Source of the DNA: Eledone cirrhosa
Taxonomy: Eukaryota
Assembly (NCBI GenBank): GCA_964016885.1
Contig: OZ024746.1
Span: forward strand, 24,614,001 to 24,678,000
DNA: 64,000 nt
Direction: 5' to 3'
The position numbers were made by a program, and so were the translations under genes. The notes under the pieces were generated by a model. That model was not told where the DNA came from. It was given only the letters and a program-made list of their open reading frames with translations, and searched no databases. Positions 1 through 26,042 of the stretch are shown one piece after another (the first letter of the stretch is position 1; each line of letters opens with the position of its first letter).

Positions 1-506
1 TTGCAGAGAATGTGTATATGTTTGTGTGTGTGCGCGTGTGCGTGCATGCCCACGTGTGTGTGTGTGCTTTTGTGTATATGTATATATATATATGTGCGTG
101 TGTGCGTGCAAGTTTGTATGTGTGTGTATGTATTTCCCTGTCTCTATGTTCATGACCAGTAACTTAGCGGTTCGACAAAAATGACATCGATAAAATAAGT
201 ACTGGTGTGCATATGATGCACAAATAATTCAAGGAGGTGCTCCAGCGTGGACGCGGTCTAATAAGTAAAATCAGTAGACAAATAAAAGGGTAAACAAATA
301 TATGTTTGAAAATATGTGTTTATATATGTATATATATATATGTGTGTGTGTGCGTGTGTGTATGTGTTTGTATATATTGTGTGTGACTGAATGAAAATGT
401 ATAAGTGAGTGTCTATGCACGTACGCATGCATAAGTGTATATACTTATACGTATAAAATATATATATAAATATAAATTTATGTATCTACATGTATGTATG
501 TATATA

Positions 507-589
<83 letters not shown>

Positions 590-956
590 ATGCGGGTATT
601 TTTAGTGCAGCGCTTTAAGCAACTGCAGTACCGTTTCAATTTGAACTTTTGATATTTTTGATACGGGTCTGTTTAGGGCAAAAGTCTGCTTTTCAACACT
701 GAATAGATGAGGTCGTTGATAAGATGAAATAAATCAGCCATTGGGCTTTTTAACATATTCAATTTCCTCTGTATCAGTTTCAATTAATTAAATATAATAG
801 ACACACTCGATTTGATACTTAACTACAGCAAGGGATTCCATTATGTAACAACATGAAGTAAGCCATCTACTTAAACTCATACACACACTCACGCATGTAT
901 ATGTGTGAGTGAGAGTATGTGAGTTTGTGTGTGCGTATATGCGTGTATATACATAT

Positions 957-1046
<90 letters not shown>

Positions 1047-1076
1047 TATCTCGCTTGCTTTTCCAACTTTGAATAT

Positions 1077-1192
<116 letters not shown>

Positions 1193-1377
1193 TTACATTG
1201 CTTGATTCATTCATGTTACAAAATAGAATTATTTATATAGAGAGAGGGAGAGGGGGGGGGCAGATAGAAAGATATATGTTATATTTGTGCGCGTTTTGAA
1301 TGTGTCTATTTTACACGGGTACACACACACACGCACACACACACACACACACATATGTATGTATATTTATGTATATG

Positions 1378-1423
<46 letters not shown>

Positions 1424-1913
1424 ATATGTATAATATATATACATACATATATGCATACATACATACGTGCATACATATGTCCATATATGTACATACATAT
1501 ACTTCAATACGCATACGTATATGTTTATAAATATATTACTATATGCATATATACATATATATACATAGACATATGTATGTGGCGTGCGTGTGTGTGTGCG
1601 TGTGTGTGTGACAACAACTACATGCCCAAACCTTTAGTGATTCCTTCATATATACAAATGTGAACAATGTCAACACTGATCTCAAAGTGAAGCTACTAAT
1701 TCGGAGTAGAAACTCTGATATAGAAACGTTTCATACTGCAACTTGCACTGGAATCGATTTAATCGATTTTCCCCTCGCCCAAAATTGTTGGCCGTGTGCC
1801 TAAATCAGAAGCCAGCATGAGTTACCTTTGTTAAACTGTGTTTAAAGATGCTTCCCCTTAAATCTGCTCGCTTTTCTAATATAGTTTATAAACTTAAATG
1901 TTTTGCCTCTTAC

Positions 1914-1990
1914 ATACGAGGCTCAGCTGAAAACTTCATAGGCTGACTATGAAAGAGTAATGCTAGAGCTGTGAAATCTTGCATGCATTA
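1914..1990 (+). mobile_element. Truncated copy of the mariner-type MITE seen intact at 51081-51268
   Basis: tacgaggctcagctgaaaacttcataggctgactatg...gctagagctgtgaaatcttgcatgcatta aligns by eye to the left part of the 51.1-kb and 55.9-kb copies. Confidence 0.7.
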
Positions 1991-2824
1991 GAGGCATGAG
2001 AGACAGGGGCATAGTGAATTGTTGAAAAAGTTTTAGCATCTGACCTATTCTTTCTCTATTCTCCTATCCCACAGGACATAAGAGTTTAACAATTATACTA
2101 ACAATTGTATTCAGAATAAAGGCACTTATGAGCTCATATACAATGTTTTTATTGTTTTTCTTTTGTATATTACACATACATATAATTTCACTGTGGGTAA
2201 ACGTCCACTGAGGATGGGTTAATGATCCTGAAATACATTATACAGCGTTCTTATACGATTACTTCGGTTATACTTAAACATATTAAATATGGCTACATAT
2301 ACAAACAGAGACATATAACAGTTCACTGCTTCAGACTTATCTACTGCACTGCCAGCTAGTATCAGTAATTAGTAATTTCTGAGACATTTGTCACCTAAGT
2401 CGCCTCTCTTCTATCATCCATGTCTTCCTCTTTCGTGCTTTTTTTTCTGCAGAGTCATGTCAACAGATCCGTATGTATTGTATGAGAACGGCTGGTCAAT
2501 CATGCAATTCCACCCACGTGCCGTTTATCTTAAAACTAACTTCATGCTCTCTTCTATCTCTAGTCATGAGAAGTGTTCCTTTCTTTCATTCTCTCCGATG
2601 AACGACCATTACTCCAAACGTCTGATACGTTGAGACATTCTTTCTGCTTTTCTTACAAGGGTGAAATTAATGTCTTTGTGTAATTTTCTCTCCGTGTTTG
2701 TCTTTTTTTAATCTTGAACTATATATATATACATCCTGGAGAGGAGATGGGATCCACCAGGTTTTAAAATGCCCTAGAAACGCCGTATGTTAATACGGCG
2801 CCCTGCGAAACCCTCGGGAGTTAC

Positions 2825-2881
<57 letters not shown>

Positions 2882-2973
2882 ATAACTGGGGGAAAATAAC
2901 ACACGAGAACAATAAAATACAAGTCTAACGCTTTATATATTGTAGACGAGTCTTAACGTTTCGAAAATTATAT

Positions 2974-3209
2974 CAGGGGCGGTGGAAGCATTTCTAAATC
3001 GGGGGGCAAGTTTGGACAATTTAGTTGTAGTGATTAGTTTAGTTCTTTGCACTCTAAAGTGGTCAGAAAACTTCGATATGCGTGTAAACATAACATGAAC
3101 ATAAGTTGTAGCGCATATCCAAATAGATGTGTGCTTTGGTAGTTTGGGGAGAAAATATAATTATTGGAGGGATGCATACCCCCCCCCTCTCCCAGTTCAA
3201 CCACCACTG
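2974..3209. mobile_element. MITE-like element with imperfect CAG-starting terminal inverted repeats in a TA tract
   Basis: Left end CAGGGGCGGTGGAA; reverse complement of the right end CAGTGGTGGTTGAA; tatat on both flanks. Confidence 0.5.
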
Positions 3210-3354
3210 TATATATATAATTTTTAAAAAATTATACTCTTTGCCCTTTCCTAAGGGGTTAATATACCGAGCATCTTCGCATTTGGTAAGAAACTGGCAT
3301 TATATCCAATTTATTCATACTGTGCCGATTGTGTTGTTATTTCTATTTACCTTT

Positions 3355-3440
<86 letters not shown>

Positions 3441-3470
3441 CACGGGTGTGTATGATTGTGTATAGAAGAT

Positions 3471-3720
3471 TATATTAATATTAATAAGAGGAATTCCAAC
3501 TTTGTCTGATTTACTCGTTTTATTTACAATCCTTTAAAATTTATAATGGTATTATAATGAAATAGTATGATAGAATATTAAATTCTAAGTGTTAATTAAC
3601 ACTTAGAATTTAATATTCTATCATACTATTTCATTATAATACCATTATAAATTTTAAAGGATTGTAAATAAAACGAGTAAATCAGACAAAGTTGGAATTC
3701 CTCTTATTAATATTAATATA
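3471..3720. repeat. Perfect 250-bp loopless palindrome
   Basis: Centre gttaa|ttaac at 3595/3596; the 125-bp arms are exact reverse complements where checked. Confidence 0.95.
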
Positions 3721-4519
3721 TATATATATATATATTGATTTATTATGGCTATTGATGAGTTTGTTACTCTAACGTTTCAACTGCAAACTCACAAGATCAC
3801 CAGTCTTGTCTGGTGTGTACGCAGGTGAAATTCCAGCGCAACAAGGCTTAGCCATAATAAATGAATATTTAAACTCTACTAAGTTTTCATTCTTACGTCC
3901 GTCAATAATTCACGTACTCTAAGGTCTTGAATAATCGTCACCCAACTCTCTGGATATGTCACTAACTTGCGGAGCTTAAACGTTTTTCTCTGTCGTACAA
4001 TGCCAATAGGTAATTATGGTACAATGATAAAGATTGTACTGTTAGAGAATTATCTTCCTGATATTATTTAATTCTATCCCTCAAACTTGTGAATTCAAAT
4101 TTAACAAGTATTGTCTTCGTATTTTCATCTTTTGATAAATTAAGTACCAGTTTCATTCAGTCTTACTGTAACACCCTGTCATACAAAATCCAGTGCGGCC
4201 ATGCACCAATGTAAATATGATGTGAATATCAATTCCATTTGTTTCAATCACAATTTAAACTTATTTACATACAAGAAAACAGAAGGGCATCTAACTGGTC
4301 GTCCAGTATGCAAGAAACAGCAGCCAAATTTCCTTAAGAAATATTAATATTTAAGACTAAATTGGAAAATATACGTTTGATACATGGCACATGAAGAGAA
4401 AAAGAGAGGATGCCTATAGCTGGAACTATTTTAATCATAGGTCTTCCTAAATCGGGTTGACATTAAGCTAAAACAACAAAAACAAAAGCATATTTACATA
4501 AACTATTTGTAAAGTCATT

Positions 4520-6187
4520 TTAAAAAAGAAAAGAAATATATGTACCTTTATTTTGTTGCCACGATTTTATTATCTGATCTAACCAATCTTCAATGTCAGC
4601 TGGGATTTCTGCCGGACTATTTTCTCGCCAGTCCGGCGTTTCCCCCAATTCATTCCCAGTGAATTCCATACTTTCTGCTATATCCAAACTGTTCTCAGAA
4701 TTCTGGCCACTTTTCGACTCTTCATCATTCATACTTTCCGGACTATTCATATAGGATGGAAGAAAGGAATTTTCATGTAAACCAAAGTGTCTCATGCTAG
4801 ACCTGCAGTCGCCATTTTCTTTGTAGCTAATGTGGCTGATGCTAAAGTTTTTGAAAACATTACGGTGACAGATATTATTATTATTGTTGTTTTTATTGTT
4901 GTTGTTGTGGCTATCACCGAGAGTATGTTTTGAATCTGACGACATTTGATGCTGACAAGAGACTGAATGTTCACGTTTTACCATGTCTTCTGATGTAAAT
5001 AAAGGGGGCAATATCATTGATGCTGATGTTGATGATGGTGATGACGATATTGGTGATGATAATGATGATCGTGATAACGTTGACGACGACGACGACGACG
5101 GTGGCGGCAATGATGGTGAAGGAAAGGAAGCTGTTTTTGTTCTAAACCCGCTGTTGTTGCTGTTGTTATTTCTACAGTGAACTCGTTTACATAGGACGAA
5201 TTCATTCGAAATTTCATTTTTGATTACTGGCGAATTTGCTTTAACAGCATTGGCGGCGGCAACAGCATCATCATCAACAGCTGCAATGGACGAAGTTTGG
5301 ATGTTCAAAGGTGGTTCTGGAAGCTGGGCGTCAGAAACGGACGAAACACTGGCCATTTTGGATAGACTGGTTGTTAAAATATTTTCCAGTTCCTGTACAG
5401 ATAAATCCGGAAGATGGCGCCTTAGTGAAGGAAGTCTCATTTTCGATAAATGCTTTCGCTTTGTAGCAATCTCATCGAAAAACGTTTCCACCAGTTTTGG
5501 ATCTATAACCGGAAGTTCCACTGCACGTCGCGGTTGAAAATGCTGTTGCTGGCCAAAGCTACTGAATAGATTGATTTCATTACATAACGCCTGTACGTAA
5601 TCACTGCTGACATTACCACCATTTAATTTATTGTTATTCACCTCGCATTTGGAATTACTGTGGTTAGTATTACTGCTGCTGCTGTTATTACTACTACTAT
5701 TACAAACACCACCAGTAATGCTATTCAACACGCCATTGCTATTACTAGTTGTACTACAAGAAATATTACGATTTGATAAACCACAATTGTTTTCATTGTG
5801 CAAGTTACACAATTTTGGAGATTTCAACGGCGATTGCTGCTGCTGTTGATGATCTATATATTGCTGGGGATGAATGTTTTCGGCGAGAGGTGACTGGCGG
5901 AAGTTAGAACTGTCATTAACTGTTGACATTTTCCGTTTCTTCTTCAGCTGCGTTGTTAAAGACAATAAACCCGATGATGACGGAGATGAGGTAGAAGATG
6001 AAAGACCAGCTTCTGAGGATCCATTTCGTGACGTTAGATTTTCAACTAGTTTTTTCATGGTTGCTATCGTTGCCACTGGTGTCGTTGCTTCTGCTGTAAC
6101 CGACGTAGAAACTGTATTGGTTGCCTCGGTGGGTACTAACGTTTGTTTCTCTGCTTTCAGTTGGACTGTTTTCGTTTTTTTGCAAGG
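4520..6187 (-). CDS. ORF B: probable C-terminal continuation of the NPAS4-like protein in the +1 frame (or a separately initiated ORF from ATG 6058)
   Basis: 555 open codons with the same S/N/Q-rich composition as ORF A. Contains NLS-like LKKKRK and acidic amphipathic motifs ELPVIDPKLVETFFDEI, LPDLSVQELENIL and DIEDWLDQIIKSW. Possible splice donor AAG|gtacat at 4545. Confidence 0.75.
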   Translation of the reverse strand, partial: PCKKTKTVQLKAEKQTLVPTEATNTVSTSVTAEATTPVATIATMKKLVENLTSRNGSSEAGLSSSTSSPSSSGLLSLTTQLKKKRKMSTVNDSSNFRQSPLAENIHPQQYIDHQQQQQSPLKSPKLCNLHNENNCGLSNRNISCSTTSNSNGVLNSITGGVCNSSSNNSSSSNTNHSNSKCEVNNNKLNGGNVSSDYVQALCNEINLFSSFGQQQHFQPRRAVELPVIDPKLVETFFDEIATKRKHLSKMRLPSLRRHLPDLSVQELENILTTSLSKMASVSSVSDAQLPEPPLNIQTSSIAAVDDDAVAAANAVKANSPVIKNEISNEFVLCKRVHCRNNNSNNSGFRTKTASFPSPSLPPPSSSSSSTLSRSSLSSPISSSPSSTSASMILPPLFTSEDMVKREHSVSCQHQMSSDSKHTLGDSHNNNNKNNNNNNICHRNVFKNFSISHISYKENGDCRSSMRHFGLHENSFLPSYMNSPESMNDEESKSGQNSENSLDIAESMEFTGNELGETPDWRENSPAEIPADIEDWLDQIIKSWQQNKGTYISFLF

Positions 6188-7227
6188 TTAGATCTGGCGA
6201 TGAAGCGGGCGAAGGATCCGGAGTCAGTATGCCATCAGGAATAGCTGCTATTTCTATTGGTTTTGTGAAAGCTTCCTCTGTCGAAGACTGCCAATACGAG
6301 TAGTTGTAGTTAGTCAAAGTTTTAATGTCCAATTGCTTCAGTTGTTTACTCTGGCTGCCGGTCAATGCAGAGTTATGGTAATATATGGGAGCCAAACATT
6401 GGATTGGACCGTACATACAACTACTTGAGGAGAATTCTAAGCCGGGTGAAGGATCTCCATTGGAAGACGATAAAGATGTCATTGATGACGATGATGACGA
6501 TGATAGCAAAGTTGAAGGTGATGAAAAAGATGTATTAGAAGAATTGCTATTGTATGTATAACCACCTCCTCCGCCCCCGCTTCCGACTAACAATTGACCG
6601 GTATAACCTCCCGTGCCCCCGAGTGCATTAATGGCGGACAGATAAAGATGTCCGTCACTGTGACTGTTTTTATTGCTGAAACAAGGCGACATAAGCCGGC
6701 CTAGTTTACGTGGATTACACTCTTGCATAGACGAGTCCTGGTTGGTCGATTGTAGTTTTCTTTTCAGAGCCAACACACCAATGGACTGGCTTCTTTTGTT
6801 CTCACTGTTGTTATTACAATTGCTGCGGCCGTTGTTACCACCATTATTATTATTACTATTATTACTATTATTACTACTACTACTGCCACTACTGCTACTG
6901 CTGCAGCTGCTGCTGCTAACTGCATTATTAGAATTGTTTTTATTGCTCTCACTATGGCTGTTATTTGTGTTATGAATGTTATTGTTGCTGTTGTTTTGGT
7001 TTCCACTGTTGTTGTTACTATTAATACTGCTGCTGCTACTATTACTACTGCTACTGCTGCTGTTGTTATAGTTATTGCTTATGACATTGTTTGTGGGAAT
7101 GTGTGGCTGTGGTGACGACCTTTGTGGCTGTTGGTTCTGAAGCAGCTGATTCGTGGTCGCATTGCTGCTGCTGTTGTTATTATTATTGTTGTTGTTATTA
7201 TTCTTATTATTATTGCTGCTGTTATTT

Positions 7228-7275
<48 letters not shown>

Positions 7276-7715
7276 CTACTGCTACCGCTGTTGCTATTGA
7301 TGCTATTATGGCACCCTTTAGAGACGTTGTGGATATCATCAGTACAATTCGTTTTACTACTGTTAGTAGAAAGTCCTCCTGGATGTCTACCTGTGGTAGT
7401 AGTATTGTTTGGCATGGAATCTACAATACTACTAGTTGTCTCTTGGAAACAAGCAGAACTGCTGCTATTTACCACAGATTCTATTAAAGGTTGGGCTTGT
7501 AAAGATGATGATGGCGGTGGTGGCAATGCTAGTGGTGGCGGTGGAAGTAGTTGAGCAACGGAAGTGTTCACTTGATTCGTTAAATGTGATGGTAGTTGTT
7601 GTTGCTGCTGCTGCTGCTGTTGTTGTTGTTGTTGGACAGCAGAAGGGGCTGATGTTGATAAAGGTGGCGGAGGTTGTAATGTTGGTGGTGGAGGCAGTAA
7701 TGTCTGCAGCTGTGG

Positions 7716-7747
<32 letters not shown>

Positions 7748-7899
7748 GGGGTGGTGGCGGTGGTGGAAGTGGTGGTGGAGGCAGGGCGGGACCAGCCGAT
7801 TGCCCTGAATTGACGTAACCACATCCGGTTGGCGCCATTTTAGGATAAGCTTGTAAAGGAATTCCGTAAGGGGAAAGATGTTGCTGTTGTTGGTGTTGC

Positions 7900-7936
<37 letters not shown>

Positions 7937-8394
7937 GAAGATGATGGTGATGATGATGAGAATGTGGATGTGGATGGTGTGGTGGAATCTGTTGGTGGCT
8001 TGATTGTTGCTGGTGAAGATGCTGCTGATGTTGGTGATGTTGTTGCTGTTGATGATGGTGATGGTGTGAAGATTGATGTTGTTGTTGAGCTTGTTGCTGC
8101 TGCTGTTGTTGCTGCTGCTGCTGTTGCTGTTGGTGATGAGCATGTGACGGGTGAAGGTGGTGATGATGGTGATGGTGATGTCTGTCTATACTGAATGTCG
8201 TATACGCATGAGCCATGGGATCATCGTAGACAATCTGCTGCATGTGTGGTGTCAACAAGTCTTCCGGTTGTATGGAGGCTGCCATGGGGTAGTATGCAGC
8301 CCCGGGAGGGAGCATATCTATTGCAGGTACCTGTGTGGCGCAGGCCGAGGAATAGGCATAAGCTGGCCCTCTTAACTGACAAGCCTCGTCTTCA
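6042..8394 (-). CDS. NPAS4: Giant low-complexity exon, ORF A (poly-H/Q/P/N/S putative transactivation region), ending at TGA 6044-6042
   Basis: Acceptor tttttctttccag at 8396-8395 joins in phase 2 (N-EDEACQLRG...) and runs in frame into the listed 757-aa ORF. Confidence 0.85.
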
Positions 8395-10713: not shown

Positions 10714-10867
10714 TTGATTACTTGGTTGACACACACCACGACAGGATCGTCACTGTTGGCCAGCGCTTGTCTCACGTGCATCACCATGTTAACCCAGATA
10801 TGTTGGCCGTTGGCCATGAGCATGCGCACTGTAAGCATACAACCCATTTCATGGCGAGACTTGATTA
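10714..10867 (-). CDS. NPAS4: PAS-B/PAC exon
   Basis: ctttctttcag|(L)IKSRHEMGCMLTVRMLMANGQHIWVNMVMHVRQALANSDDPVVVCVNQVI|gtaaga; PAC motif R.....G..IWV; phase 1 in, phase 2 out. Confidence 0.9.
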
Positions 10868-10999
10868 CTGAAAGAAAGACACAAGGAAAGAAATAAAGCT
10901 AAAGATAAAATAATTAAGTTATTTTATACAAAGTCGGCCAAAAAATGTACATACACTTCAGGAAAAGAAACTTGTATAAATATTTAACTTGTTTAAATA

Positions 11000-11059
<60 letters not shown>

Positions 11060-11062
<3 letters not shown>

Positions 11063-11202
11063 CGAAGGAGGTGTGGTAAGGAACCAGATGGACCATAACG
11101 CACCAAAGTACTCAATACTTAGGGTAGTAGAGTGGGTAATAGGAAAATGTTTGACCCCGACGGCAGAGCTCAAGCCGTTTCGACAGCTATTTCTGGACAG
11201 TC
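11060..11202. mobile_element. Foldback repeat family C in (TA)n; other copies at 31029-31234, 37233-37318 and 42218-42335
   Basis: Shared ggtaaggaaccag.tggaccataacgcaccaaagtactcaatact and gaccccgacggc.gagctcaagccgtttcgac blocks in varying orientations, always between TA runs. Confidence 0.85.
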
Positions 11203-11209
11203 TATATAT

Positions 11210-11276
<67 letters not shown>

Positions 11277-11278
11277 CA

Positions 11279-11318
<40 letters not shown>

Positions 11319-11320
11319 CA

Positions 11321-11360
<40 letters not shown>

Positions 11361-11362
11361 CA

Positions 11363-11420
<58 letters not shown>

Positions 11421-11434
11421 CATACATATATAAT

Positions 11435-11478
<44 letters not shown>

Positions 11479-11488
11479 CATACATATA

Positions 11489-11562
<74 letters not shown>

Positions 11563-11585
11563 CATACATATATATATATATATAT

Positions 11586-11650
<65 letters not shown>

Positions 11651-11659
11651 CATATATAT

Positions 11660-11895
11660 AAAAGATGAATTTCCATGTTGAGATATCTTGATGCAAGAAA
11701 TCCCAGTAGAAGGAAGACGCAGTAGAGGAAGACGACGAAAAACATGGACGCAGGTGGTGAGAGCTGATCTCACATCGCTGAAGCTCGCAGAGGAGATGAC
11801 GAAGGACTGTGACGAAAGGAGAGATGCTGTGCTGAATAGGACTCGTCCCACCCTTGCAAGTAGGGAAAAGGCGGACGTAAAATGATGATAATAAT
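11660..11895 (+). mobile_element. RTE-clade LINE 3' fragment
   Basis: [25 protein letters not shown] matches the RTE C-terminal G.R.RGRP...W motif; short tga/taa repeat tail. Confidence 0.75.
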
Positions 11896-12052
11896 ATATA
11901 TATATATATAATATAGTAATAATAATAAATTTGAAGACTAAAATCCAAAGAGGGCTCGATAAGGATAAATATATATCAAATATATAAGAACCGTAGAGCA
12001 AATATTTTAATAAATTAATATATATATAATATATATATATATATAATATATA

Positions 12053-12126
<74 letters not shown>

Positions 12127-12271
12127 TGGTAAATCACTGATGAGGGACTCATTTTATAACATGTTATCCATGTGCAACCATGCAGTATTCTACCTCCCCA
12201 TTTTTTCACATATATATATATATATATATACGATATTAAACAAATGGAAACTATATTTATAAAACCATATC

Positions 12272-12337
12272 TATTTCATTATACATATTTCAGGGATTCC
12301 ATATTAAAAATATGGCATGCCTTCTTCAGATAAAATA
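12272..12337 (-). ncRNA. Type I hammerhead ribozyme motif, sense to the NPAS4-like pre-mRNA (intronic)
   Basis: Inverted copy of the 12433-12498 motif with one substitution in stem II; core intact. Confidence 0.75.
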
Positions 12338-12432
12338 CAATATATAAGCAGTTTTATAAATAAATTTGACGTACCATAAGATATTGATCAACTTCCATTT
12401 AAAAAAGTTGGTTATATATTGCTTATATATTG

Positions 12433-12498
12433 TATTTTATCTGAAGAAGGCATGCCATATTTTTAATATGGTATCCCTGAAATATGTATAATGAAATA
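12433..12498 (+). ncRNA. Type I hammerhead ribozyme motif
   Basis: Stem I UAUUUUAU/AUGAAAUA; core CUGAAGA (12441); stem II AGG-c-AUGCCAUAUU-uuu-AAUAUGGUAU-c-CCU; GAAA (12479); near-palindromic minimal stem III AUAUGUAU; cleavage triplet AUA. Confidence 0.78.
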
Positions 12499-12625
12499 GA
12501 TATGGTTTTATAAATATAGTTTCCATTTGTTTAATATCGTATATCTACTCCAAAACTTGTTGAGTGCTTTATATCAGTTATAAAATATTTACTCGTTGTA
12601 ACCCAACAATTTTAAATAAAACTTT

Positions 12626-12667
<42 letters not shown>

Positions 12668-13123
12668 TTTCTTTCCTGAAGTGTGTATGCATTTTATTGA
12701 CGGACTGTATATATTTGTTTATTTCTATTGTTACATATACAACAAACATTGTTAAGATGTTCAGGAGAAGATGGTGGAAGAATGGCAACATTCAGATATT
12801 TCGTTTATATATAAGGGCCGAAACACTTGCATGTGGTGTGGTTTTTTTCTCTGAAGACCTTCTGCTGTCCAGCTCACTTCAGAGTTCCTTACCACCTTAG
12901 AATGCATGAGAGTGTCCTTGACTCTATTCAGATTTTGCGAAATTTTTACAACGTGGCACCAAAGGTAGCTAAGGTCAAGATAACTGTGTTAAACAGGTCG
13001 ACGGATTAAATCTATCACTCAAATCGGCATTGGTGCGATTTGAACTCAGAACATATGGCATCCCATAGAAGGAAGAGGAGGAATGGGGAAGGGGATGGAG
13101 GAGGAGGAGGCAAATGAACTCAC

Positions 13124-13230
13124 ATTGAATATGTTTGGTTTGTCCTTCCCATATATCTTCAGGGTGTAAAAATGAATACCAAGACTTGGAGATTATTTCT
13201 TCGCTGGAGAATCCCAAATGAAATTCACCA
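13124..13230 (-). CDS. NPAS4: PAS-B exon
   Basis: atttcag|(S)GEFHLGFSSEEIISKSWYSFLHPEDIWEGQTKHIQ|gtgagt; SWY..LHPED is the PAS-B hallmark; phase 2 in, phase 1 out. Confidence 0.92.
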
Positions 13231-13294
13231 CTGAAATCAGAAAAAAAAAAGATTTCAAATAATAAAGGTTTCTAACGTAGTAATTTGTAGGGTG

Positions 13295-13790
13295 GAGTAG
13301 AAAGTCAGTTCTATCGACACCAATACCTAACTTATTTTATTGACCTCGGAAGGATGATAAGCAAAGTTGACCTTGGCGGAATGTGAACTCAGAACGTAAA
13401 GTGCGCTGCACCATTTAGTTACGATCCTTCAAGTTCTGAGTTCAAATCCTGCCAGAGTTAAATTTGACATTAATCTTTCCGAGGTCGATAAAATAAAATA
13501 CCAGATAATTACTGGGTTAATATAATGGAATTTCACCTTCCTCAAAATTGATAGACTTGAGTCAAAGTTAGAGAGAAAAAAATAATGATTTCTAATTTAG
13601 GAACAAGGCCAGTAATTAGGAAGAATAGAAAGTCTATTAAATCGACCCCAGCACTTAATTGGTACTTTCTTTTATCGACACCGGAAGGATGACAGGCAAA
13701 GTTGACTTCAGCGAGATTTGAACTCAGAACGTAGAAAGTCCTAACTATATACCGCGAAGCATTTTGTCCGAGATTCTAACAATTCTGCCA
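13295..13790. mobile_element. Cluster of three fragments of the dominant tRNA-like SINE in alternating orientation
   Basis: ttctgagttcaaat..cgcc.agg...actttgc...catcctt.cg.ggtcgataaaataa motif on - (13295-13400), + (13430-13570) and - (13590-13790). Confidence 0.75.
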
Positions 13791-14341
13791 AATATACTAA
13801 AATATCTCTATCAATTTATTTTCTTTTTTTTTAACAGGCATACATTACACACACGCAGAGGCGCGCGATGACCATCATCACTGCCACCAACACATCAAGT
13901 TGACAAGTCAATTATAAAAAACCCAATAAAGTTCAATTACAACAACAACAACAACAACAACACCCCCTCCCCCTCCCCCTCTCTCTCCCTCTCCCTCTTT
14001 CTCTCTCTTCACGTACTTCATCTCTCCGTCTAGTAGATCACATGATCACATCACCTTAGTATGTTCTGCTGACACAGGCATGGCTGAGTAGAGAATCATT
14101 AAGTTCTAGAACGACCTCGGTTCCTTACCAATGTATCTGCTGAATATATATTGAGGAACACCAACAGTGTGAAACAGAATCTGTCAGCTTCTCCCCCTTC
14201 CTTTGCCGAAAAAAGAAGTAAGTGACATGGTCACTATTTTAAAATGATAGCGCAAGGTCTTCAAAATGTTTTTAATTAAACATACGGTATATTGCCAAAT
14301 ATACTATACATACATTCCTATATATATATATATATATATAT

Positions 14342-14688
14342 AGAAGAAGAAGAAGAAGAAGAAGAAGAAGAAGAAGAAGAAGAAGAAGAAGAAGAAGAAG
14401 AAGAAGAAGAAGAAGAAGAAGAAGAAGAAGAAGAAGAAGAAGAAGAAGAAGAAGAAGAAGAAGAAGAAGAAGAAGAAGAAGAAGAAGAAGAAGAAGAAGA
14501 AGAAGAAGAAGAAGAAGAAGAAGAAGAAGAAGAAGAAGAAGAAGAAGAAGAAGAAGAAGAAGAAGAAGAAGAAGAAGAAGAAGAAGAAGAAGAAGAAGAA
14601 GAAGAAGAAGAAGAAGAAGAAGAAGAAGAAGAAGAAGAAGAAGAAGAAGAAGAAGAAGAAGAAGAAGAAGAAGAAGAAGAAGAAGAAG

Positions 14689-14769
<81 letters not shown>
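14342..14769 (+). repeat. Compound (GAA)~116(CAA)~26 tract, intronic
   Basis: Direct reading; uninterrupted. Confidence 0.95.
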
Positions 14770-14774
<5 letters not shown>

Positions 14775-14811
14775 GATGTTACATATGTGATTTTGCACGT
14801 ATGTATATATA

Positions 14812-14844
<33 letters not shown>

Positions 14845-14877
14845 TATGGAATACTGTTGGCTTTTTCTATACCTTTC

Positions 14878-14918
<41 letters not shown>

Positions 14919-15067
14919 ATAAAAGAGAAAACACAGGTAAGCATTAAAAAAGGTTTTTATCCAGGTATTTACGACCGTTACATTGGTAAGTGCAGCCTTA
15001 TATTGCTATACTGCAAATAGCAGCCACTGAAACCGTCCATGAAACTATATATATATGTGTATATGTA

Positions 15068-15142
<75 letters not shown>

Positions 15143-15415
15143 GCATATTTGTATGTGGATGCTGGGTTTATATTTACAATGTGTGCTATATGATCACGAA
15201 TTAGAAATTCGGAACATAATATGAGGGATGACGCTAGTACAAGAGCCGTACAGAGAGGGAGAGGGAGAAAGTGGGAGAGAGGGAGAGACACGAGAGGGGG
15301 GAGGGGGTGTATGAGGAAGATGATCCAAATAACCATGGTTGACAGCGATATGTTTCAGTGAAACTACGCTGGGATGACCTAAAGTCAAATGGAGAAGATT
15401 AGAGTTTCACCTCAC

Positions 15416-15603
15416 CTGTGTGATATCTCCAAGTAGGTCATATCGAGACGATGTGCCGACTTAAATATCATCGTATCACTGAGCAAAAGTGTGTCTTTGC
15501 TGTCAATAGTTATCAGGGGATAACAAAATGAGGCGAACACTAATTGTTCCCCGCCTCGTTCTGGATCAGGAACCGCTACAAAATGTCCGCGGACGTGCAT
15601 CGT
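15416..15603 (-). CDS. NPAS4: End of PAS-A / start of PAS-B exon
   Basis: ttcaacag|TMHVRGHF...VFASFCYPLI...FKSAHRLDMTYLEISH|gtgagg; 188 nt, phase 0 in, phase 2 out. Confidence 0.9.
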
Positions 15604-16207
15604 CTGTTGAAGAAAGAAATAGAAAAAGATAGAAAACGTATAAAGACATGATGGAATGCATGACAACAAGTGAAATAGTGAACATGAATTAACTGTTAAT
15701 ATGGTGCCGTAATAAAAAGAGTTTGATTAGGTAGCGTCTGTAGATCCCATGCCAAATATGAATAAAAGATTAGTATTTGTCTGTCTATTTGTATGTATGT
15801 ATGTATGTATGCATATATGTATGTGTGTATGTATGTATAAACGCATGTAGGTTTATATATGTATATATGTATGTATGTATGTAGATGTTCAATGTTACTT
15901 GTTTTCGATGTGTTCAAATCCTACTGATGTCAACTTTGCTCTTCGTAATTCAAAGATTGATAAAATGTAGTGTACATCAATGGAATTTTTATCTCAGAAC
16001 TAAAAGGGACATAAAAAAAAAACCCACAAATTATTTTTTTTCAACCATCATACCCATTCTATCATTTCAGTTTCCTATATAAACATTCAATTATCGATCT
16101 GGTAAGATAATTTGGAACTTTAGCAACACTTCAAAAGAAAAACGTCTCTGTAAGAACACACACACACACATACATATATGTGTGTGGGTATATATATATA
16201 TATAAAG

Positions 16208-16260
<53 letters not shown>

Positions 16261-16428
16261 CAGACAGGCAGGCAGACAGGCCGAGACAGTAAGAGCTTTA
16301 AAAGTGTGTGAACATAAGAGAAGACAGATGGACTAAAAAGTCAGTAGGTTTTATTTGGTAAATCTCATCACATTTTAATCGATGAAGTCAGTGAAAAAAA
16401 TAGAAAGACTTAAAATAAGAAGAAAAGG

Positions 16429-16528
16429 TCGGCTGTGTGGACGAATAAATATCGATTGTCTATGTGTGTGTTTGGAGAGACACACACACACACACAGACA
16501 ATCGATATTTATTCGTCCACACAGCCGA
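16429..16528. repeat. Short foldback (33-bp perfect arms extended by TG/CA repeats)
   Basis: tcggctgtgtggacgaataaatatcgattgtct ... agacaatcgatatttattcgtccacacagccga. Confidence 0.9.
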
Positions 16529-16530
16529 AC

Positions 16531-16600
<70 letters not shown>

Positions 16601-16621
16601 GACACATACACACACTAACAC

Positions 16622-16652
<31 letters not shown>

Positions 16653-17189
16653 TTCAAGTATCAATGTCTCTCAGAAAAGGTTGATAAAAATATCTGTTTT
16701 CTCATCAAACACTTAGATAATGGTTTGTAGGTTCTTTTCGAACATTGCAACAACGTAGTCATCGTCTGCACATTGAAAGTCTAACAGTGATGTGCTTGTA
16801 GTCTTGTTCTTTGATTTCATTATGTTAACCCTTTCGTTACTATATTTATAATCTAAGACAGTGCCATTTTTTTTTTTTTTAAATAATGAAGAATTTAAAG
16901 TCGTTATGTAACATAACTAAATTTTTTTTCAGCATTAATCTCGTGTTTTATGTATAACTTTAAAAATAATCATACAAACGAGTAAATTTATAATTGAAAG
17001 ATTTTAAATAACATAAATAGATATGTATAGTAGAGGCAAGTTCGGTTTGAGGTGGTTTGGTATGAAAAAGGTTAGAGTTGAATAGGGTTCCATCGATTCT
17101 AGAAAAAATTTCACTGCTAATTGGTAACTTGTCCCTGAATACATACATACATATATATATATATGCGTGTGTATAGCTAGCTAGCTAGC

Positions 17190-17427
<238 letters not shown>

Positions 17428-18064
17428 TAATCATAGATATAGATATATATTACTATTATTCGATAAACATGATCAGATTCAAAATGGAGGTTACGTGTTG
17501 TTTTTTATTGAATATTTTTACCCTCCATTACGTTCTTCATGTCACAATAATTTACATTTATCATTCGCCTTCTACAGGTGTATTTACTTAACACCACCAC
17601 CACTATCAACCACCTACCCTAAAAGTCAAAACCTCAACCACCACCATCACCATTACCATTACCATCACCAACAGTAATGCTAACAAAATAAACTAAGGTA
17701 AGTTTACATCTTGTGTTGTTGTAGTTGGTTGTGATAGTTTCTGTTACTTTTCTTCCTATTCCTCCGTGTTTATAATATATTTCTGAAGAAAAACCGCATT
17801 TTTTGCTGCTAGTGTACACTTTGTCCTCATCCCTCGAACTTTCAGTCATTTTTTATTCCCACTAAGTCTTCCTCATTTTTTAGATGCTTTTCAGTTTTTT
17901 TCTAATTATTATTCTATCTTCTTTTTTTTTAATATTTGGTTTCGTCATCCATGAAAGTCTTCCAGTTTTCCCTTAGACATTCTTCTTTACTCACTCTATC
18001 TCATTGTCTCCCTCTCTATATCTCTATCTATCTCTATTTACTCCCACTCCCTTTCTTATTCCCC

Positions 18065-18109
<45 letters not shown>

Positions 18110-18225
18110 CATGTGTGTGTGTGTGTATGTATGTGTGTGTCTGAGAAAATATTTGCGTATTTGTATTTGTAAATCCGCGTATTAATGCATCTAGGTATGT
18201 ATGTGGGTACGTCCGCTTATGTGAA

Positions 18226-18333
<108 letters not shown>

Positions 18334-18358
18334 TAGATAGATAAAGGAATAGATAGAT

Positions 18359-18403
18359 TTCTTTATTAGCCACAAGGGCGCAACAAGAAAAGGGGACAAT
18401 ACA
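18359..18403 (-). mobile_element. Severely 5'-truncated (45 bp) Tx1-like LINE insertion with a 16-bp TSD
   Basis: Matches the 3' end of the 22-26.6 kb element (ttctttattagccacaagggcgc..caagaaaaggggacaa); flanked by the direct repeat aaaggaatagatagat at 18343-18358 and 18404-18419. Confidence 0.85.
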
Positions 18404-18438
18404 AAAGGAATAGATAGATAGATAGATAGATGTCTTAC

Positions 18439-18621
18439 TTTGACGTCACCGAACCCTGATTGCCGCTTTACACTTCTTGACATATTCATACGACAGAAGA
18501 AAGCTAATGGCTGTCCCGGAATAACATCCGTCCCTCCTCGTAAAAGCTGCGCCTGGACTGTAATGTGATCCCTTTTATCAATTATATCAAAAAGACTGTC
18601 CCCTTGAGTCTTCATATCCAC
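18439..18621 (-). CDS. NPAS4: PAS-A exon (second part)
   Basis: ttttccag|VDMKTQGDSLFDIIDKRDH...FFCRMNMSRSVKRQSGFGDVK|gtaaga; the QGDS.FDIID..DH and F.CRMN.SRS..RQ motifs are NPAS4-like; 183 nt. Confidence 0.92.
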
Positions 18622-19764
18622 CTGGAAAATAAATAAATATCGTATAGTTTATATGAAGCCTTGTGAGATATATGGTTAGGGTTGTTCAGGGAAAGTTAGC
18701 ACAATGTAAGTTAGAAATGAAGAAGTGAACACTAGAGTAAGAAAAAAAAACAGAGTTTACTATTTTACATTATATTTCGTAATATTTCGAGGTTATGACC
18801 ATTTTTTCAATATCATGAACTATTATGAAATATAAGGGGAAAATATAAGCTGTTGGTTTTTTTTTCTTTTGCTTTTTGTTATACTTTACTCTAATTTTCA
18901 CTCTTTTGTTTCTAACCTGTACACTACTGGCTTTCCCTACACCAATCTTAACCGCATAAGAATCATTGAGAAATCTGCTATCTCTATTGTGGTAAGGGAA
19001 AAGACATTATAATTTCAGTTTTTGTTGAAATAATTATTTTAGAGAGGAAAGTATCCTTAAACCGACCTCACCCGAAAGCTTTCAGCAGATTAGACTCCAG
19101 TTATGACTATCAATAGATAGGTAGTTATTAAACATGGCGATTAAGTCTATCACCCAAGTAGACCACGGTGGAATTTAAACTCAGAAAGTAAAGAACAAGA
19201 ATAAATACCGCAATGCATTCCATCCAATTCTTTAACAATTTATTATCGATAATGAAGGGTGTGAGGCAAAGTTGACCTCACAACATAGTGAGCAGGAATA
19301 AATACTACTGCAAGGCATTTTATCCGAGGCTCTATCGATACTGCGGACTTATTGATATTACGAGTATATAATATACAAGATTTCTTTTTATTAAATAGCT
19401 GAAACTTTTGGAAGCACGTTGGATGGACTATACTTGTAATTCAAAATGGCCAGACTTGTCACAGTGTCTCATGCTGAATCTCCCTGATAAATACGTTTCT
19501 GTGGAATTCTCAGCTACTGACACTATAATACAAGTTGTATCTGTAATTAAAAGGGTCAGCTTTACCACAATGAGTCAGCTTTGTCCCATAATGTCATACA
19601 GTAACTCCATGAGATTTACGTTAATGTAAACGTTTCTCTGAAATGCTCAGCTACTTTAATTTCACGAGCGGGCTGTTCTGTTGATCGAATAATTGGTACC
19701 CTCATCGTCGAAACGGACAGAAGCCCATTCTAACGAAATAGCAATGTAGTTGGTGTATACCTAC

Positions 19765-19854
19765 CATAGAATGGCCCAAATATTCCGTTACATTTTCTGA
19801 AATGTAGACTAGCTTCCCATCTCTTGTAGTAATAAGTAGGAAACCAGCCAACGC
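19765..19854 (-). CDS. NPAS4: PAS-A exon (first part)
   Basis: ctattgcag|[30 protein letters not shown]|gtaggt; typical PAS-A signature, 90 nt, phase 0/0. Confidence 0.92.
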
Positions 19855-19914
19855 CTGCAATAGAAACCAAACATAAGAGTGTAAGGTAGATCATCATCAT
19901 CATCATCATCATCA

Positions 19915-19948
<34 letters not shown>

Positions 19949-20399
19949 TGTCATCGTTATTATCATTATTTTTTTATCGCTATTATTTTAAGGTACAGAA
20001 CACTGACAATCTTAAGCAGGATAATTTTCTAGAATATATCCAAGGCCTCAATAATAGACAGAGAAATGTGGTGCACGTCATGTAACATACATATGTAGTT
20101 AACTGAGAGAAAACCGAGAACTGAACTTGCTCCTGGATAATACGCCAGCCTGACAAGAGGTTAACTCAGCTGTTTTAAGTACTATTTTTTCAGCTGAGGG
20201 AACCGGAACAACGTGGATACAACGTGAAATGAAGTGCCTTGGTGAGTGCCAAATACTCTACCCAATTCAGGACTGAACCCACGACTTTACGATTGTGAGA
20301 TCATCACTGTAACCACTAGGCCATATACGTTTAATGAAGATGTCTAAAGGATCTTGATCAAAATGTTTTATTGAATTTATGAGAGAAAAAGCAGCTTAC

Positions 20400-20449
20400 C
20401 TGGAAAAAGTCAAAAGGTGTTTCCGAAGCAGTACTACTGGTCCCGAACC
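20400..20449 (-). CDS. NPAS4: 50-nt linker exon between bHLH and PAS-A
   Basis: ttttttgcag|...|gtaagc; encodes (W)FGTSSTASETPFDFFQ; phase 1 in, phase 0 out, fitting both neighbours. Confidence 0.82.
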
Positions 20450-20959: not shown

Positions 20960-21126
20960 ATCTGCTCATGATGTTACACTTTCGAATGTAAACACATGAA
21001 AGAGACATTATCTGAAGCTGAGAAAGTCGCTGCCGCGCTGTCTCGGCCAGAGGAAGCAAATCTCGCATCATGTTAATCTGTGCATTGATCTGGTCCCGTC
21101 TCTGTTTCGATGCCCCCTTGGTCGAC
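20960..21126 (-). CDS. NPAS4: bHLH exon of an NPAS4/dysfusion-family bHLH-PAS transcription factor
   Basis: Translates (R)[50 protein letters not shown], matching the NPAS4/Dysfusion basic region STKGASK.RRD.IN. Acceptor ttcgtttcag, donor gtaagt; phase 2 in, phase 1 out. Confidence 0.92.
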
Positions 21127-22006: not shown

Positions 22007-25000
22007 TTCTTTATTAGCCACAAGGGCGCACAAGAAAAGGGGACAAAACAAAGACATGCCGGGGATTTTACATACAATCGTGTAAAAAAATATAAAACAA
22101 ACAATTATAACAATCGAAATCCCCAATAGGTGGGGGGGGCACAAGTGGGTTGTTTAATACCCCGTCGATAGAACAACCCTCAACTTCAGGAGCATGTTGT
22201 GCAAGTGCTCCTTTCTTCCTTTTGCTTTCTTCTTCAACCTACAGGCTTATATACAGAGAAGGCCCAATCACTCGGGCCATTTTTGCCACATTCACCCACC
22301 TTTAAGTAAATTTACTGGGGTGCAGTGCCTCTCTCTCCATTCTGATACTCCTTCTAAAGTGATACTTAAAGAAGGGAATCAATTGTTGTCCGGAGAGAAA
22401 GGCATCTGTCCTCAGTCCTCTTAACCTCGTCCACCATATAACCTCTTTCACCATAGCCACCGTACAGAGGAAAGCCGCCTCTCTTTCGTTTTTGAAAGAG
22501 GCTGGCGGTTTGATCCATACTATGGACTCGGCAGTCAATTGGATTTGTCCCATACGCGACAGCAGTTGTTCCGCGTAGTTTCACAGGTCGGTTGCGCCCG
22601 GGCAGTGTACAATTGCGTGCAGGACGGTTTCAATGTCCTGCACGCATCTTGGACACGTCCTCTTGGAAGGATCCCTGCCGGAGCGTCCATGCCTGTAGAT
22701 CTTGTCACGAACTAGTAGAGCTCCTCGGTAGCACTGCCAGGCCAGGGACCTCTGGAAGTTGTCCATAGGTCCCGGGCGGAAAGTCCTACCAAGCAGACTG
22801 GCGAGCTCATCGTCTTCGACGCCCAGAGTCTCTCCGAGCACGTCGTCGCCCTTGTAACGTACAATGCCTCTATAGAATGTCGAAGTGGAGTCTTCACTGA
22901 TTGCTGTTCCAGCTTGTCAGAGGACTGTGAGCGCCTGAGCGCATTCAATATGCCAGGCGCCCATCGTTTTCGGTCTTTTCTTGACTGCAGCTCCGTCAGC
23001 GAGACGAGCTGCGGGAAAGCCTGTCTCACAAACGGTGTCCACACCGGTTGGAGGTCGGTGAGGAATACATGGAGATGCCGCAGCCTCAGCGCATGTTTGC
23101 GCATCATCAGCCACGGCATTCCCAGCCCTCCGTTGGAAGGGTGCTGGCAGCAGACGGATCTCCTCACCAGCAGAGCCTGCTTCTTCCACAGAAACTGGAA
23201 GAGCATGCGTTCCATCTTTGCGAAGTGTTCACGGGGACAAGGCACGACACTCAAGCGGTAGTAAATGACGGACGCTATGAAAGTGTTCGCCACCTCCGCT
23301 TGACCTTTCAGAATCGTGGATTTGTTGCCACTTTTTGCCTCCGCCACTCGGGCCCAGCTGACAGCTTTCGCTCCTTCGTTTCTTAGAGCACGTGTTTTGC
23401 TTCTGACCACGCAGCCTTCGTGTTTCTCGTCGAAGAACTGGTTCAGTGCCGTTCTCGGCGCTAACACTCTAGCCGCGTTGCCACTTCTAAGTGCCTCCTC
23501 TACCTTGGCTACTCTCTATTCTATTTTGTTTTTTCTCTAAGGCTAACTCTCTGCTAAACCCTATCGATTCTACTCTAATTGCTTTCTTGAGAGAGTACCA
23601 CCATCTATTGTTGACGATGGCTCCCGTTAACTGTTGCTTGACTAGTCTACTTATCCGTTCACTGTAAGCTTTACGTGCCGGCAACGACACGTTCAGCTTC
23701 CAGTATCTGGGTTCCTGTCTATGTGTTCTATCACGGTTGACTATGCAGACGACTAATTTGTGATCTGAATAGGCAACCATGTGCATTCGTGGACAGCTTA
23801 ACATCTCCTTGTCCCTTTCTCTAATGAAGAACCCATCTAAATACGATCTAGATGTCCCGCTGCGGTTTGCCCACGTCCACTGTGGTGCAGTCGGGAAATC
23901 CAGTCGATACCTATCGGCCAGTTGGAATAGGCCGATTAAAGTGTTGAAGCTGTTGCACCCCCTCTACTGGAACATGATCCTACATAGTCCCATCGTGCAT
24001 CTAGGATACTATTCCAGTCCCCCACTAAAAGCAAGGAGCGACACGTTTCCAGAAAAGACTCTAGACGCTTGAAGAAGTTTGGCCGCGATTGCCCAGTCAG
24101 AGCATAAACGGCTACCAGTCTGAAGGCTCCACTTCCAACACTGTTCACGTCTAGGACTACCAGTCGACCCTCCGGGTCCAAATGTACTTGCTGTATTTTG
24201 ATGTCCAGGTTTTTCCGAAACATGACAGCTACTCCCCCTCCACCTCCTGGCTGACTGAGAGATGCAGAGATCTCAAAGTCGTCGAAGATGAGGGTCAGCT
24301 GCTGCCTGTTGTGGATCCTGGACTCGGTGATGGCTATCACATCTATATCGCGTGACCTAAGCTCGTTTAAGAGTTTGCCTTGTTTCCAGGGCATCCCTAG
24401 GCCACGCACATTCACACTTCCAACTCGTAAATCAGCCATGTTGGTGTAGAAGAGTTGGCAAAATAGGGACGAAAGGATGCACTTACTTTTCCGTTTCCTG
24501 GAGATCGGGTTGTTCGATCTCCATTTCAGTTTTGGTGGTGGTGTTGAGTGGGGTGGGGAACATTTCAACAGGGCACGGTTTATTGGTTTTTGGTATGGGT
24601 TCCCAACGTCCTGTGAAAATTGGTTCTTTAGTTTTTGGTAGGTTTCTAGCGGAACCCTTATTAGTTTGAGGTGTGATGCAGTGTCAGATTTTACAAATGT
24701 TTTCCCCTCAGTTTCCACTTTGGGGTCCTGGGAAATGATCTCTATTAAATTGTTATTGTTGGTGTTGATGTATGTATATTGTTGTTTTTGTTTTGGTTGT
24801 GTTGTTTTAGTTTGTTTTTTGTCTGTGAGTTTTTTTTGTGTTTGGGGTGGTGTTGGTAGGGGGAGGTTTGGTTGTGGTCTTGTTTGTGTTGTTGTTTGTG
24901 TCTGTGGCTGTGTGTTGGTGCTGGTGAGTGGAGTTTTGGGGGTTTTGCAGAGTCTCTTTTTTTGTTTGTTTTTTTGTTTTGTTTTTATTTCCTTCACTTA

Positions 25001-26000: not shown

Positions 26001-26042
<42 letters not shown>

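What the first reader, a model, noticed from the sequence alone, without database searches (positions are those of the whole stretch)
6042..6187. Two long ORFs overlap by 146 nt, one base out of frame, inside the NPAS4-like last exon: recoding, stop-restart or assembly indel
Seen: ORF A (bHLH-PAS frame) stops at TGA 6044-6042. ORF B, in the +1 frame, is open from 6187 for 555 codons. The overlap holds an A7 run (CAA AAA AAC, 6181-6175), an A6 run (GAA AAA ACT AGT TGA, 6055-6050) and an ATG in strong context (GCAACCATGA, 6058) 14 nt before the stop. Removing one base gives a protein of about 1600 aa, versus about 1100 aa. Options: (a) homopolymer assembly error or polymorphic frameshift allele (most parsimonious); (b) programmed +1 frameshift or transcriptional slippage giving long and short isoforms with and without the C-terminal motifs; (c) termination-reinitiation. 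Established: vertebrate NPAS4 is a neuronal activity-induced factor, so regulated recoding would be notable.
Basis: partly seen in the sequence, partly recalled or inferred. Interest (0 to 1): 0.72.

Follow-up and report, generated by a model that had tools for sequence, protein, structure and literature searches.

The report
One-base assembly slip in octopus NPAS4
This octopus gene for an NPAS4-type transcription factor looks split into two overlapping frames only because the genome assembly carries one extra base that four same-species sequencing runs and related octopods lack, likely a sequencing or assembly error and not ribosomal recoding.

Summary
The overlap is in the sequence as described, but it is not recoding. 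The assembly has one extra base at 6131-6133 (three C on the gene strand). It is not in either A run. Contigs of 4 of 4 same-species runs lack that base (three DNA-like, one spliced). A second species lacks one base at the same spot, and a third is in frame across it. The Octopus sinensis protein XP_036354540.1 runs straight from ORF A into ORF B, and a protein-only scan puts the frame change at 6128-6133. The A7 run is broken in one relative, and the start-like Met is Thr in O. sinensis. A 146-nt overlap is ordinary: 22-40% of simulated one-base insertions in this exon give as much. The exon is internal, not last. Open question: consensus error (about 0.8) or a rare real frameshift allele in the assembled animal (about 0.18). 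The assembly is otherwise accurate (121 protocadherin exons open), so the allele reading stays alive. The scan's earlier notes showed nothing on this gene.

The parts
6131..6133 (-). The extra base: three C on the gene strand in the assembly, two in the same-species contigs
   Evidence: One base left out at 6131 in X1, X2 and X3, X4; one base left out at 6128 in X5; protein-only scan peaks at 6128-6133
4546..8394 (-). Large internal coding exon (3849 nt as assembled) of the NPAS4/dysfusion-family gene; low-complexity Q/N/S/P/H tracts with short conserved motifs
   Evidence: TTCCAG acceptor and GTACAT donor; contigs of X1 and X11 leave the window at 4544, X11 continuing into final-exon sequence
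6042..6130 (-). Out-of-frame tail of ORF A ending in TGA 6044-6042; exists only because of the extra base
   Evidence: O. sinensis protein matches ORF A up to about 6134 and ORF B after about 6128
6134..6187 (-). Chance upstream extension of ORF B back to the nearest stop; the true frame here is ORF A
   Evidence: overlap length ordinary in simulation
6175..6181 (-). A7 run; not the site of the frame change
   Evidence: No indel in any run; two substitutions break it in organism C; scan score 332 against a best of 361
6050..6058 (-). Internal ATG (6058-6056) and A6 run (6055-6050); ordinary internal codons of the long protein
   Evidence: No indel in runs X1-X5; Thr at the Met position in O. 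sinensis; scan score 295 at the A6 run
20960..21126 (-). Exon encoding the NPAS4-type bHLH domain
   Evidence: PF23183 bHLH_NPAS4 92.1 bits against a cut-off of 27; splice sites
10714..20449 (-). Six exons encoding PAS-A and PAS-B (20449-20400, 19854-19765, 18621-18439, 15603-15416, 13230-13124, 10867-10714)
   Evidence: tblastn of P0001, 56-95% identity; all AG/GT borders, and joined they read without a stop
1..4545 (-). 5' part of the last intron (5939 nt); the final coding exon starts about 1394 bases before window base 1 (L002 position 8606)

Best explanation
The gene is a single-frame NPAS4/dysfusion-family bHLH-PAS gene whose assembly carries one extra base at 6131-6133 that same-species contigs and orthologues lack, and that base is likely a consensus error (a two-base C run called as three). 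The normal product is predicted to be one chain of about 1620-1630 aa, made by ordinary splicing and translation: bHLH, PAS-A, PAS-B, then a long low-complexity tail with conserved short motifs. The two overlapping ORFs are what any one-base insertion in a coding exon produces: the old frame runs on to its next stop, and the new frame extends back to its previous stop. Shown: the site, its absence from other data, the continuous orthologues. Inferred: error rather than rare allele; the full protein length.
For: 4 of 4 same-species runs laid lack the base. X1 covers 4544-6829 with 0 other letters and 1 gap at depth 103.9; X2 covers 5670-6829 with 0 other letters and 1 gap. X3 covers 6039-6460 with 0 other letters and 1 gap; X4 covers 5900-6457 with 1 other letter and 1 gap. 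X2 runs into the intron, so it is genomic; X1 leaves at the exon edge with 709 further letters, which I infer is spliced RNA. Organism B (X5) has 1 gap in 561 bases, at 6128. Organism C (X6) has 190 letters where the window has 179, which is in frame once one base is dropped. O. sinensis XP_036354540.1 (P0121) is continuous: 85% identity to the ORF A side and 57% to the ORF B side. Dropping one base at each of 151 positions scores best against it at 6128-6129 (361) and 6131-6133 (360), against 332 at A7 and 295 at A6. Cuttlefish-type proteins P0001, P0122 and P0125 hold both halves in one chain. 37 of 51 orthologues checked carry the ORF A motif followed by the ORF B motif in one chain. X2 has a second one-base gap in 4400-5697 with no substitution (table 8; place not shown). 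The window differing only by extra bases is what consensus errors look like (inference). Homopolymers are hard for PacBio and Nanopore reads (PMC12212083, passages).
Against: All runs laid are contigs, which drop minor alleles, and X2-X4 are shallow (depth 4.6, 2.5, 2.0). X2-X4 are one sample and X1-X4 one study, so they are not four independent tests. It is not established that they come from the assembled animal. The assembly is accurate: all 121 protocadherin matches lie in open frames of 727-1000 aa, and the two shortest show no frame change, so errors of this kind are rare in it. In two human HiFi assemblies about 78% of frameshifted genes were supported as true variants (PMC12212083, passage). 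A C3 run is a weak homopolymer. The synonymous-change test did not favour the expected frames: for X5, 0 of 3 changed codons downstream of the site were silent in frame B and 2 of 3 in frame A; upstream, 1 of 3 in A and 2 of 3 in B (too few, and from a cut table).
Confidence: 0.8

Rival explanations
1. The extra base is a real, rare frameshift allele on the haplotype that was assembled. It would give a stop 1496 nt before the last exon junction, so the message would likely be destroyed by nonsense-mediated decay (50-55 nt rule, recalled) or give a protein of about 1100 aa without the C-terminal motifs.
For: Low frameshift rate in the assembly; most frameshifts in accurate human assemblies are true variants (PMC12212083); contigs cannot show absence of a second allele (tool text); decay would hide the allele in the spliced run X1.
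Against: Three DNA-like runs all give the two-C form; if they are from the same heterozygous animal, that is about a 1 in 8 event (inference). No linked substitution separates the window from X1 over 2285 bases. No second haplotype copy in the assembly (1 match). The gene is single-copy by that search and conserved.
Confidence: 0.18
2. Programmed +1 ribosomal frameshifting or transcriptional slippage at the A7 or A6 run gives long and short isoforms.
For: Only the presence of the two A runs inside the overlap; they are the only A runs of 6 or more in the exon. A7 is kept in organism B.
Against: No discontinuity to cross in same-species DNA or spliced contigs, or in three other octopods. A7 is broken in organism C. 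Shifting at either run gives a worse match to O. sinensis than shifting at 6128-6133.
Confidence: 0.01
3. Termination-reinitiation at the ATG at 6058 makes ORF B as a separate protein.
For: An ATG lies 14 nt before the ORF A stop.
Against: The stop exists only in the assembly's reading. The Met is Thr in O. sinensis. An ATG within 20 nt of the premature stop arises in 37% of simulated insertions. Orthologues carry the ORF B motifs on the bHLH-PAS chain.
Confidence: 0.01

Closest known systems
Single-base indel (false frameshift) in a long-read genome assembly (PMC12212083, passages read)
   Same: One base more than reads and orthologues show, in a short homopolymer, with no flanking substitutions; it creates a false premature stop and two overlapping ORFs.
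   Different: The run is short (two against three C), and raw reads of the assembled animal were not seen, so a true rare allele is not excluded.
NPAS4/dysfusion family of bHLH-PAS factors (mouse Npas4, Drosophila dysfusion, molluscan 'NPAS4B-like' proteins; PMC4066832, passages read)
   Same: PF23183 bHLH_NPAS4 domain, PAS-A and PAS-B, and the two short tail motifs shared with bivalve and gastropod orthologues.
   Different: Predicted about 1620-1630 aa, against 712-1025 aa for the other molluscan, annelid and brachiopod proteins P0002-P0043 bar one insect protein, and about 1100 aa in cuttlefish-type proteins; the excess is simple-repeat expansion in one 3.85-kb exon. Activity-induced neuronal expression is not tested here, and PMC4066832 notes that the family's roles differ among fly, amphioxus and mammals.
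Cellular programmed frameshifting (antizyme +1, PEG10 -1; recalled) and viral termination-reinitiation (calicivirus TURBS; recalled)
   Same: Only the look of two overlapping frames with an A run or a nearby ATG.
   Different: Those discontinuities are in the genome and the mRNA of every individual and are conserved among relatives; this one is in the assembly alone.

Membership tests
NPAS4/dysfusion bHLH-PAS | NPAS4-type bHLH domain | tested here: met
   PF23183 92.1 bits, cut-off 27
NPAS4/dysfusion bHLH-PAS | PAS-A and PAS-B after the bHLH | tested here: met
   Window exons match the PAS region of P0001 at 74-95% for five exons; P0001 carries PF14598 and PF08447 over cut-off, PF00989 below it
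NPAS4/dysfusion bHLH-PAS | Nearest named relatives are NPAS4, dysfusion or cky-1 | tested here: met
   Most named rows among the best 120 of 180 hits to P0001 residues 10-400; a few carry other automatic names (HIF1a-like, single-minded-like). No tree was built.
NPAS4/dysfusion bHLH-PAS | Dimerises with ARNT/tango; activity-induced in neurons (mammals) | not tested
   Family knowledge only (PMC4066832 passages)
Programmed +1 ribosomal frameshift | Frame discontinuity present in genomic DNA and mRNA | tested here: not met
   4 of 4 same-species runs continuous
Programmed +1 ribosomal frameshift | Discontinuity and shift site conserved in orthologues | tested here: not met
   Organisms B and C and O. 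sinensis in frame; A7 broken in organism C
Programmed +1 ribosomal frameshift | Stimulator (stop or hungry codon at the site, RNA structure) | not tested
   Not pursued once the discontinuity was shown absent
Transcriptional slippage | RNA differs from DNA in the length of an A or T run | tested here: not met
   Spliced-type contig X1 equals DNA contigs X2-X4 at both A runs and at 6131; minor RNA variants cannot be seen in contigs
Termination-reinitiation | Conserved stop and start close together | tested here: not met
   Stop is out of frame in all other data; Met is Thr in O. sinensis
Assembly indel error | Base present in the assembly, absent from same-species sequence data and orthologues | tested here: met
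Assembly indel error | Absent from the raw reads of the assembled individual | not testable with these tools
   Only contigs were served for the holders, and their link to the assembled animal is not established

The most novel reading that the evidence does not exclude
The assembled octopus carried a natural loss-of-function allele of its NPAS4-type gene on one chromosome: a one-base insertion that removes about 540 C-terminal residues, including a motif kept across molluscs. If it segregates in wild animals, it would be a ready-made mutant for asking what NPAS4 does in an octopus.
Probability: 0.18. Interest if true: 0.2.

Novelty: not a real feature. Interest (0 to 1): 0.04.

Why it matters
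As recoding it does not matter, because there is nothing to recode. The practical value is a correction. Gene models built on this assembly would cut NPAS4 at about 1100 aa or split it in two, and lose the conserved C-terminal motifs. If the base is a real allele instead, it is a rare natural null in a little-studied cephalopod transcription factor: a search for 'octopus' with 'npas4' gave one unrelated paper. The case also shows that the eye-catching A runs in an overlap need not be the site of the indel.

Tried and rejected
A7 and A6 as the site: no run shows an indel there, and both score below 6128-6133 against O. sinensis. A hidden small intron in the overlap: GT sites were listed; not needed, as the spliced-type contig X1 is colinear through the region apart from the one base. 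Synonymous-change test of which frame is under selection: inconclusive and, for X5, leaning the unexpected way on 3 plus 3 codons; taken from a table with rows cut. First motif count gave 0 of 43 because my pattern was too strict (it missed even P0001); the relaxed pattern gave 37 of 51. First coding exon: not found in the window by tblastn, pattern or local alignment. Word-index search with ORF B for longer proteins found only P0001; no full-length octopus protein appeared. Final-exon motif not in the window; found in the neighbouring stretch. The look-up of sequencing runs listed no RNA holder on record. X11 does not cover 5975-6133 with an aligned piece, so it says nothing directly on the site. 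Papers: 'octopus' with 'npas4' gave 1 unrelated hit; 'cephalopod' with 'ribosomal frameshifting' gave 11 listings, none on a cephalopod cellular gene by title or abstract start. Searches were seen as listings only, apart from the two papers read in passages. No supplements were opened. Earlier scan notes: nothing on this gene.

Full report
Observation. The minus strand holds ORF A (stop-to-stop 8423-6042, 793 codons) and ORF B (6187-4520, 555 codons), one base out of step and overlapping by 146 nt. The window is C6:24614001-24678000 of a 3.0-Gb assembly, and the region has one match in it.

The gene. tblastn with P0001, a 1099-aa protein found with ORF B, gives seven upstream exons between 21126 and 10714 and the large exon 8394-4546. 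All have AG/GT borders and join in frame. The exon at 21126-20960 scores 92.1 bits on PF23183 bHLH_NPAS4, and named relatives are mostly NPAS4, dysfusion or cky-1. The large exon is not the last. It ends at a GT donor at 4545-4544. A loose end of run X11 at 4544 led to an 11-codon final exon 5939 nt further on, outside the window; its translation resembles the end of P0001. From the bHLH exon on, the assembly reads 1096 aa, and with one base fewer 1606 aa. The first coding exon was not found.

Where the frame changes: sequencing runs. Of 15 runs listed, 7 were laid. The four that carry the label organism A, which I take to be the window's species from their near-identity, all lack one base at 6131, in the run 6131-6133. 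X1: 4544-6829, 0 other letters, 1 gap, depth 103.9. X2: 5670-6829, 0 other letters, 1 gap, depth 4.6. X3: 6039-6460, 0 other letters, 1 gap, depth 2.5. X4: 5900-6457, 1 other letter, 1 gap, depth 2. X2 runs on into the intron, so it is genomic; X3 and X4 are the same sample. X1 leaves the window at the exon edge with 709 further letters and is a small data set, so I infer it is spliced RNA; its loose end was not shown. None of them differs at the A runs. Organism B (X5) spans 5900-6460 in one contig with 20 other letters and a single gap, placed at 6128 beside two substitutions, which is the same spot. Organism C (X6) has 190 letters where the window has 179; that is 12 more than the window without the extra base, so in frame.

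Where the frame changes: proteins. A profile-free search of 1.84 billion representatives with ORF B returned 3 proteins. P0121 is O. sinensis XP_036354540.1. Its first 200 residues match ORF A at 85%, and the next stretch matches ORF B at 57%. Dropping one base at each of 151 positions from 6190 to 6040 and scoring against P0121 peaks at 6128-6129 (361) and 6131-6133 (360); A7 gives 332 and A6 gives 295. This test uses no read data and lands on the same few bases. P0121 has 78 residues between two flanking motifs against 75 here, a different surplus from organism C's 12 bases, so organism C is probably another species. P0001, P0122 and the cuttlefish protein P0125 also hold both halves in one chain. 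Of 51 orthologues checked (P0001-P0043 and 8 cephalopod proteins), 48 have the ORF A motif, and 37 have the ORF B motif after it in the same chain. ORF B is therefore an old part of this protein.

Are the signals more than chance? No. One-base duplications simulated at 3785 positions in the exon give a median overlap of 101 nt, with 40% at 146 or more; in the less repetitive part, 65 nt and 22% of 1901. An ATG of the downstream frame lies within 20 nt of the premature stop in 1417 of 3785. But A7 is broken by two substitutions in organism C, and the Met at 6058 is Thr in O. sinensis. A test of silent against amino-acid-changing differences did not support the expected frames. In X5, 0 of 3 codons downstream were silent in frame B and 2 of 3 in frame A; upstream, 1 of 3 in A and 2 of 3 in B. 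In X6 it was 2 of 5 in each. The numbers are too small, the tables were cut, and the stretch is poorly conserved, so I give this no weight either way.

Error or allele. Recoding needs a discontinuity in the genome and the message of the species, and there is none. What remains is why the assembly has the base. For error: it lengthens a homopolymer by one; no substitution comes with it over 2285 bases; three DNA-like runs all give the short form; X2 shows a second one-base gap somewhere in 4400-5697, again without substitutions (place not shown, probably intronic as X1 has no gap in the exon part). Earlier scan notes, unchecked by me, suggest the assembly comes from PacBio reads. For a real allele: contigs drop minor variants; the DNA runs are shallow and from one sample; their link to the assembled animal is unknown; and the assembly is accurate. 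All 121 protocadherin matches (150 of 255 candidates scored) lie in open frames of 727-1000 aa, and the two shortest show no frame change against intact neighbours. In two human HiFi assemblies about 78% of frameshifted genes were supported as true variants (PMC12212083, passages). Such variants are likely to gather in dispensable genes rather than in a conserved single-copy regulator (inference; the paper names OR, KRT and FAM families among its unvalidated cases). A real allele would put a stop 1496 nt before the last junction and would likely be removed by nonsense-mediated decay (rule recalled), so X1 does not help decide. I put error at about 0.8, allele at about 0.18 and recoding of any kind at about 0.02.

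Comparison with what is known. The gene is a member of the NPAS4/dysfusion family by domain tests; no tree was built. The feature fails the defining tests for programmed frameshifting, slippage and reinitiation, and meets the testable ones for an assembly indel. Searches found no paper on octopus NPAS4 or on frameshifting in a cephalopod cellular gene; the library lacks most subscription papers.

Verdict. Not a real feature of the species' gene. Interest 0.04.

Noticed in passing
window 4546-8394 (-): A 3.85-kb internal coding exon swollen by simple-repeat tracts (poly-Q, -N, -S, -H, -P); the predicted protein is about 500 aa longer than cuttlefish-type orthologues and about twice the length of bivalve ones.
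   Followed up: partly
window 4400-5697: Run X2 has a second one-base gap against the window with no substitution (table 8); its place was in rows not shown, probably in the intron 4400-4545.
   Followed up: no
window 22712-26379 (-): A broken LINE-like element in an intron or upstream region of the gene: endonuclease domain PF03372 (E 1.4e-9), a cysteine-histidine knuckle-like stretch upstream (read by eye), several frame breaks.
   Followed up: partly
window 45469-45992 (+) and 53956-54378 (-): Two related fragments that look like the C-terminal endonuclease region of a non-LTR retrotransposon (resemblance recalled); no Pfam hit at E 0.01.
   Followed up: partly
window 58438-58882: Retroelement fragment with a weak zf-RVT match (E 1e-4, below cut-off).
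   Followed up: partly
G000:C2 about 237.7-241.7 Mb and 251.6-253.6 Mb; C7 2.0-8.7 Mb: Dense tandem clusters of protocadherin-type single-exon frames (121 matches in the genome, all in open frames of 727-1000 aa); used as an accuracy control. L035 is about one cadherin repeat shorter than its neighbours, in frame.
   Followed up: partly
P0001 cluster: Two 31-aa members named 'phage shock protein B' are filed in the cluster of a cephalopod NPAS4 protein, evidently a clustering artefact.
   Followed up: no
P0121 (XP_036354540.1): The O. sinensis model covers only the middle of the large exon (609 aa, no bHLH-PAS) and is named as an uncharacterised protein, so octopus NPAS4 appears to be fragmented in public annotation.
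   Followed up: partly
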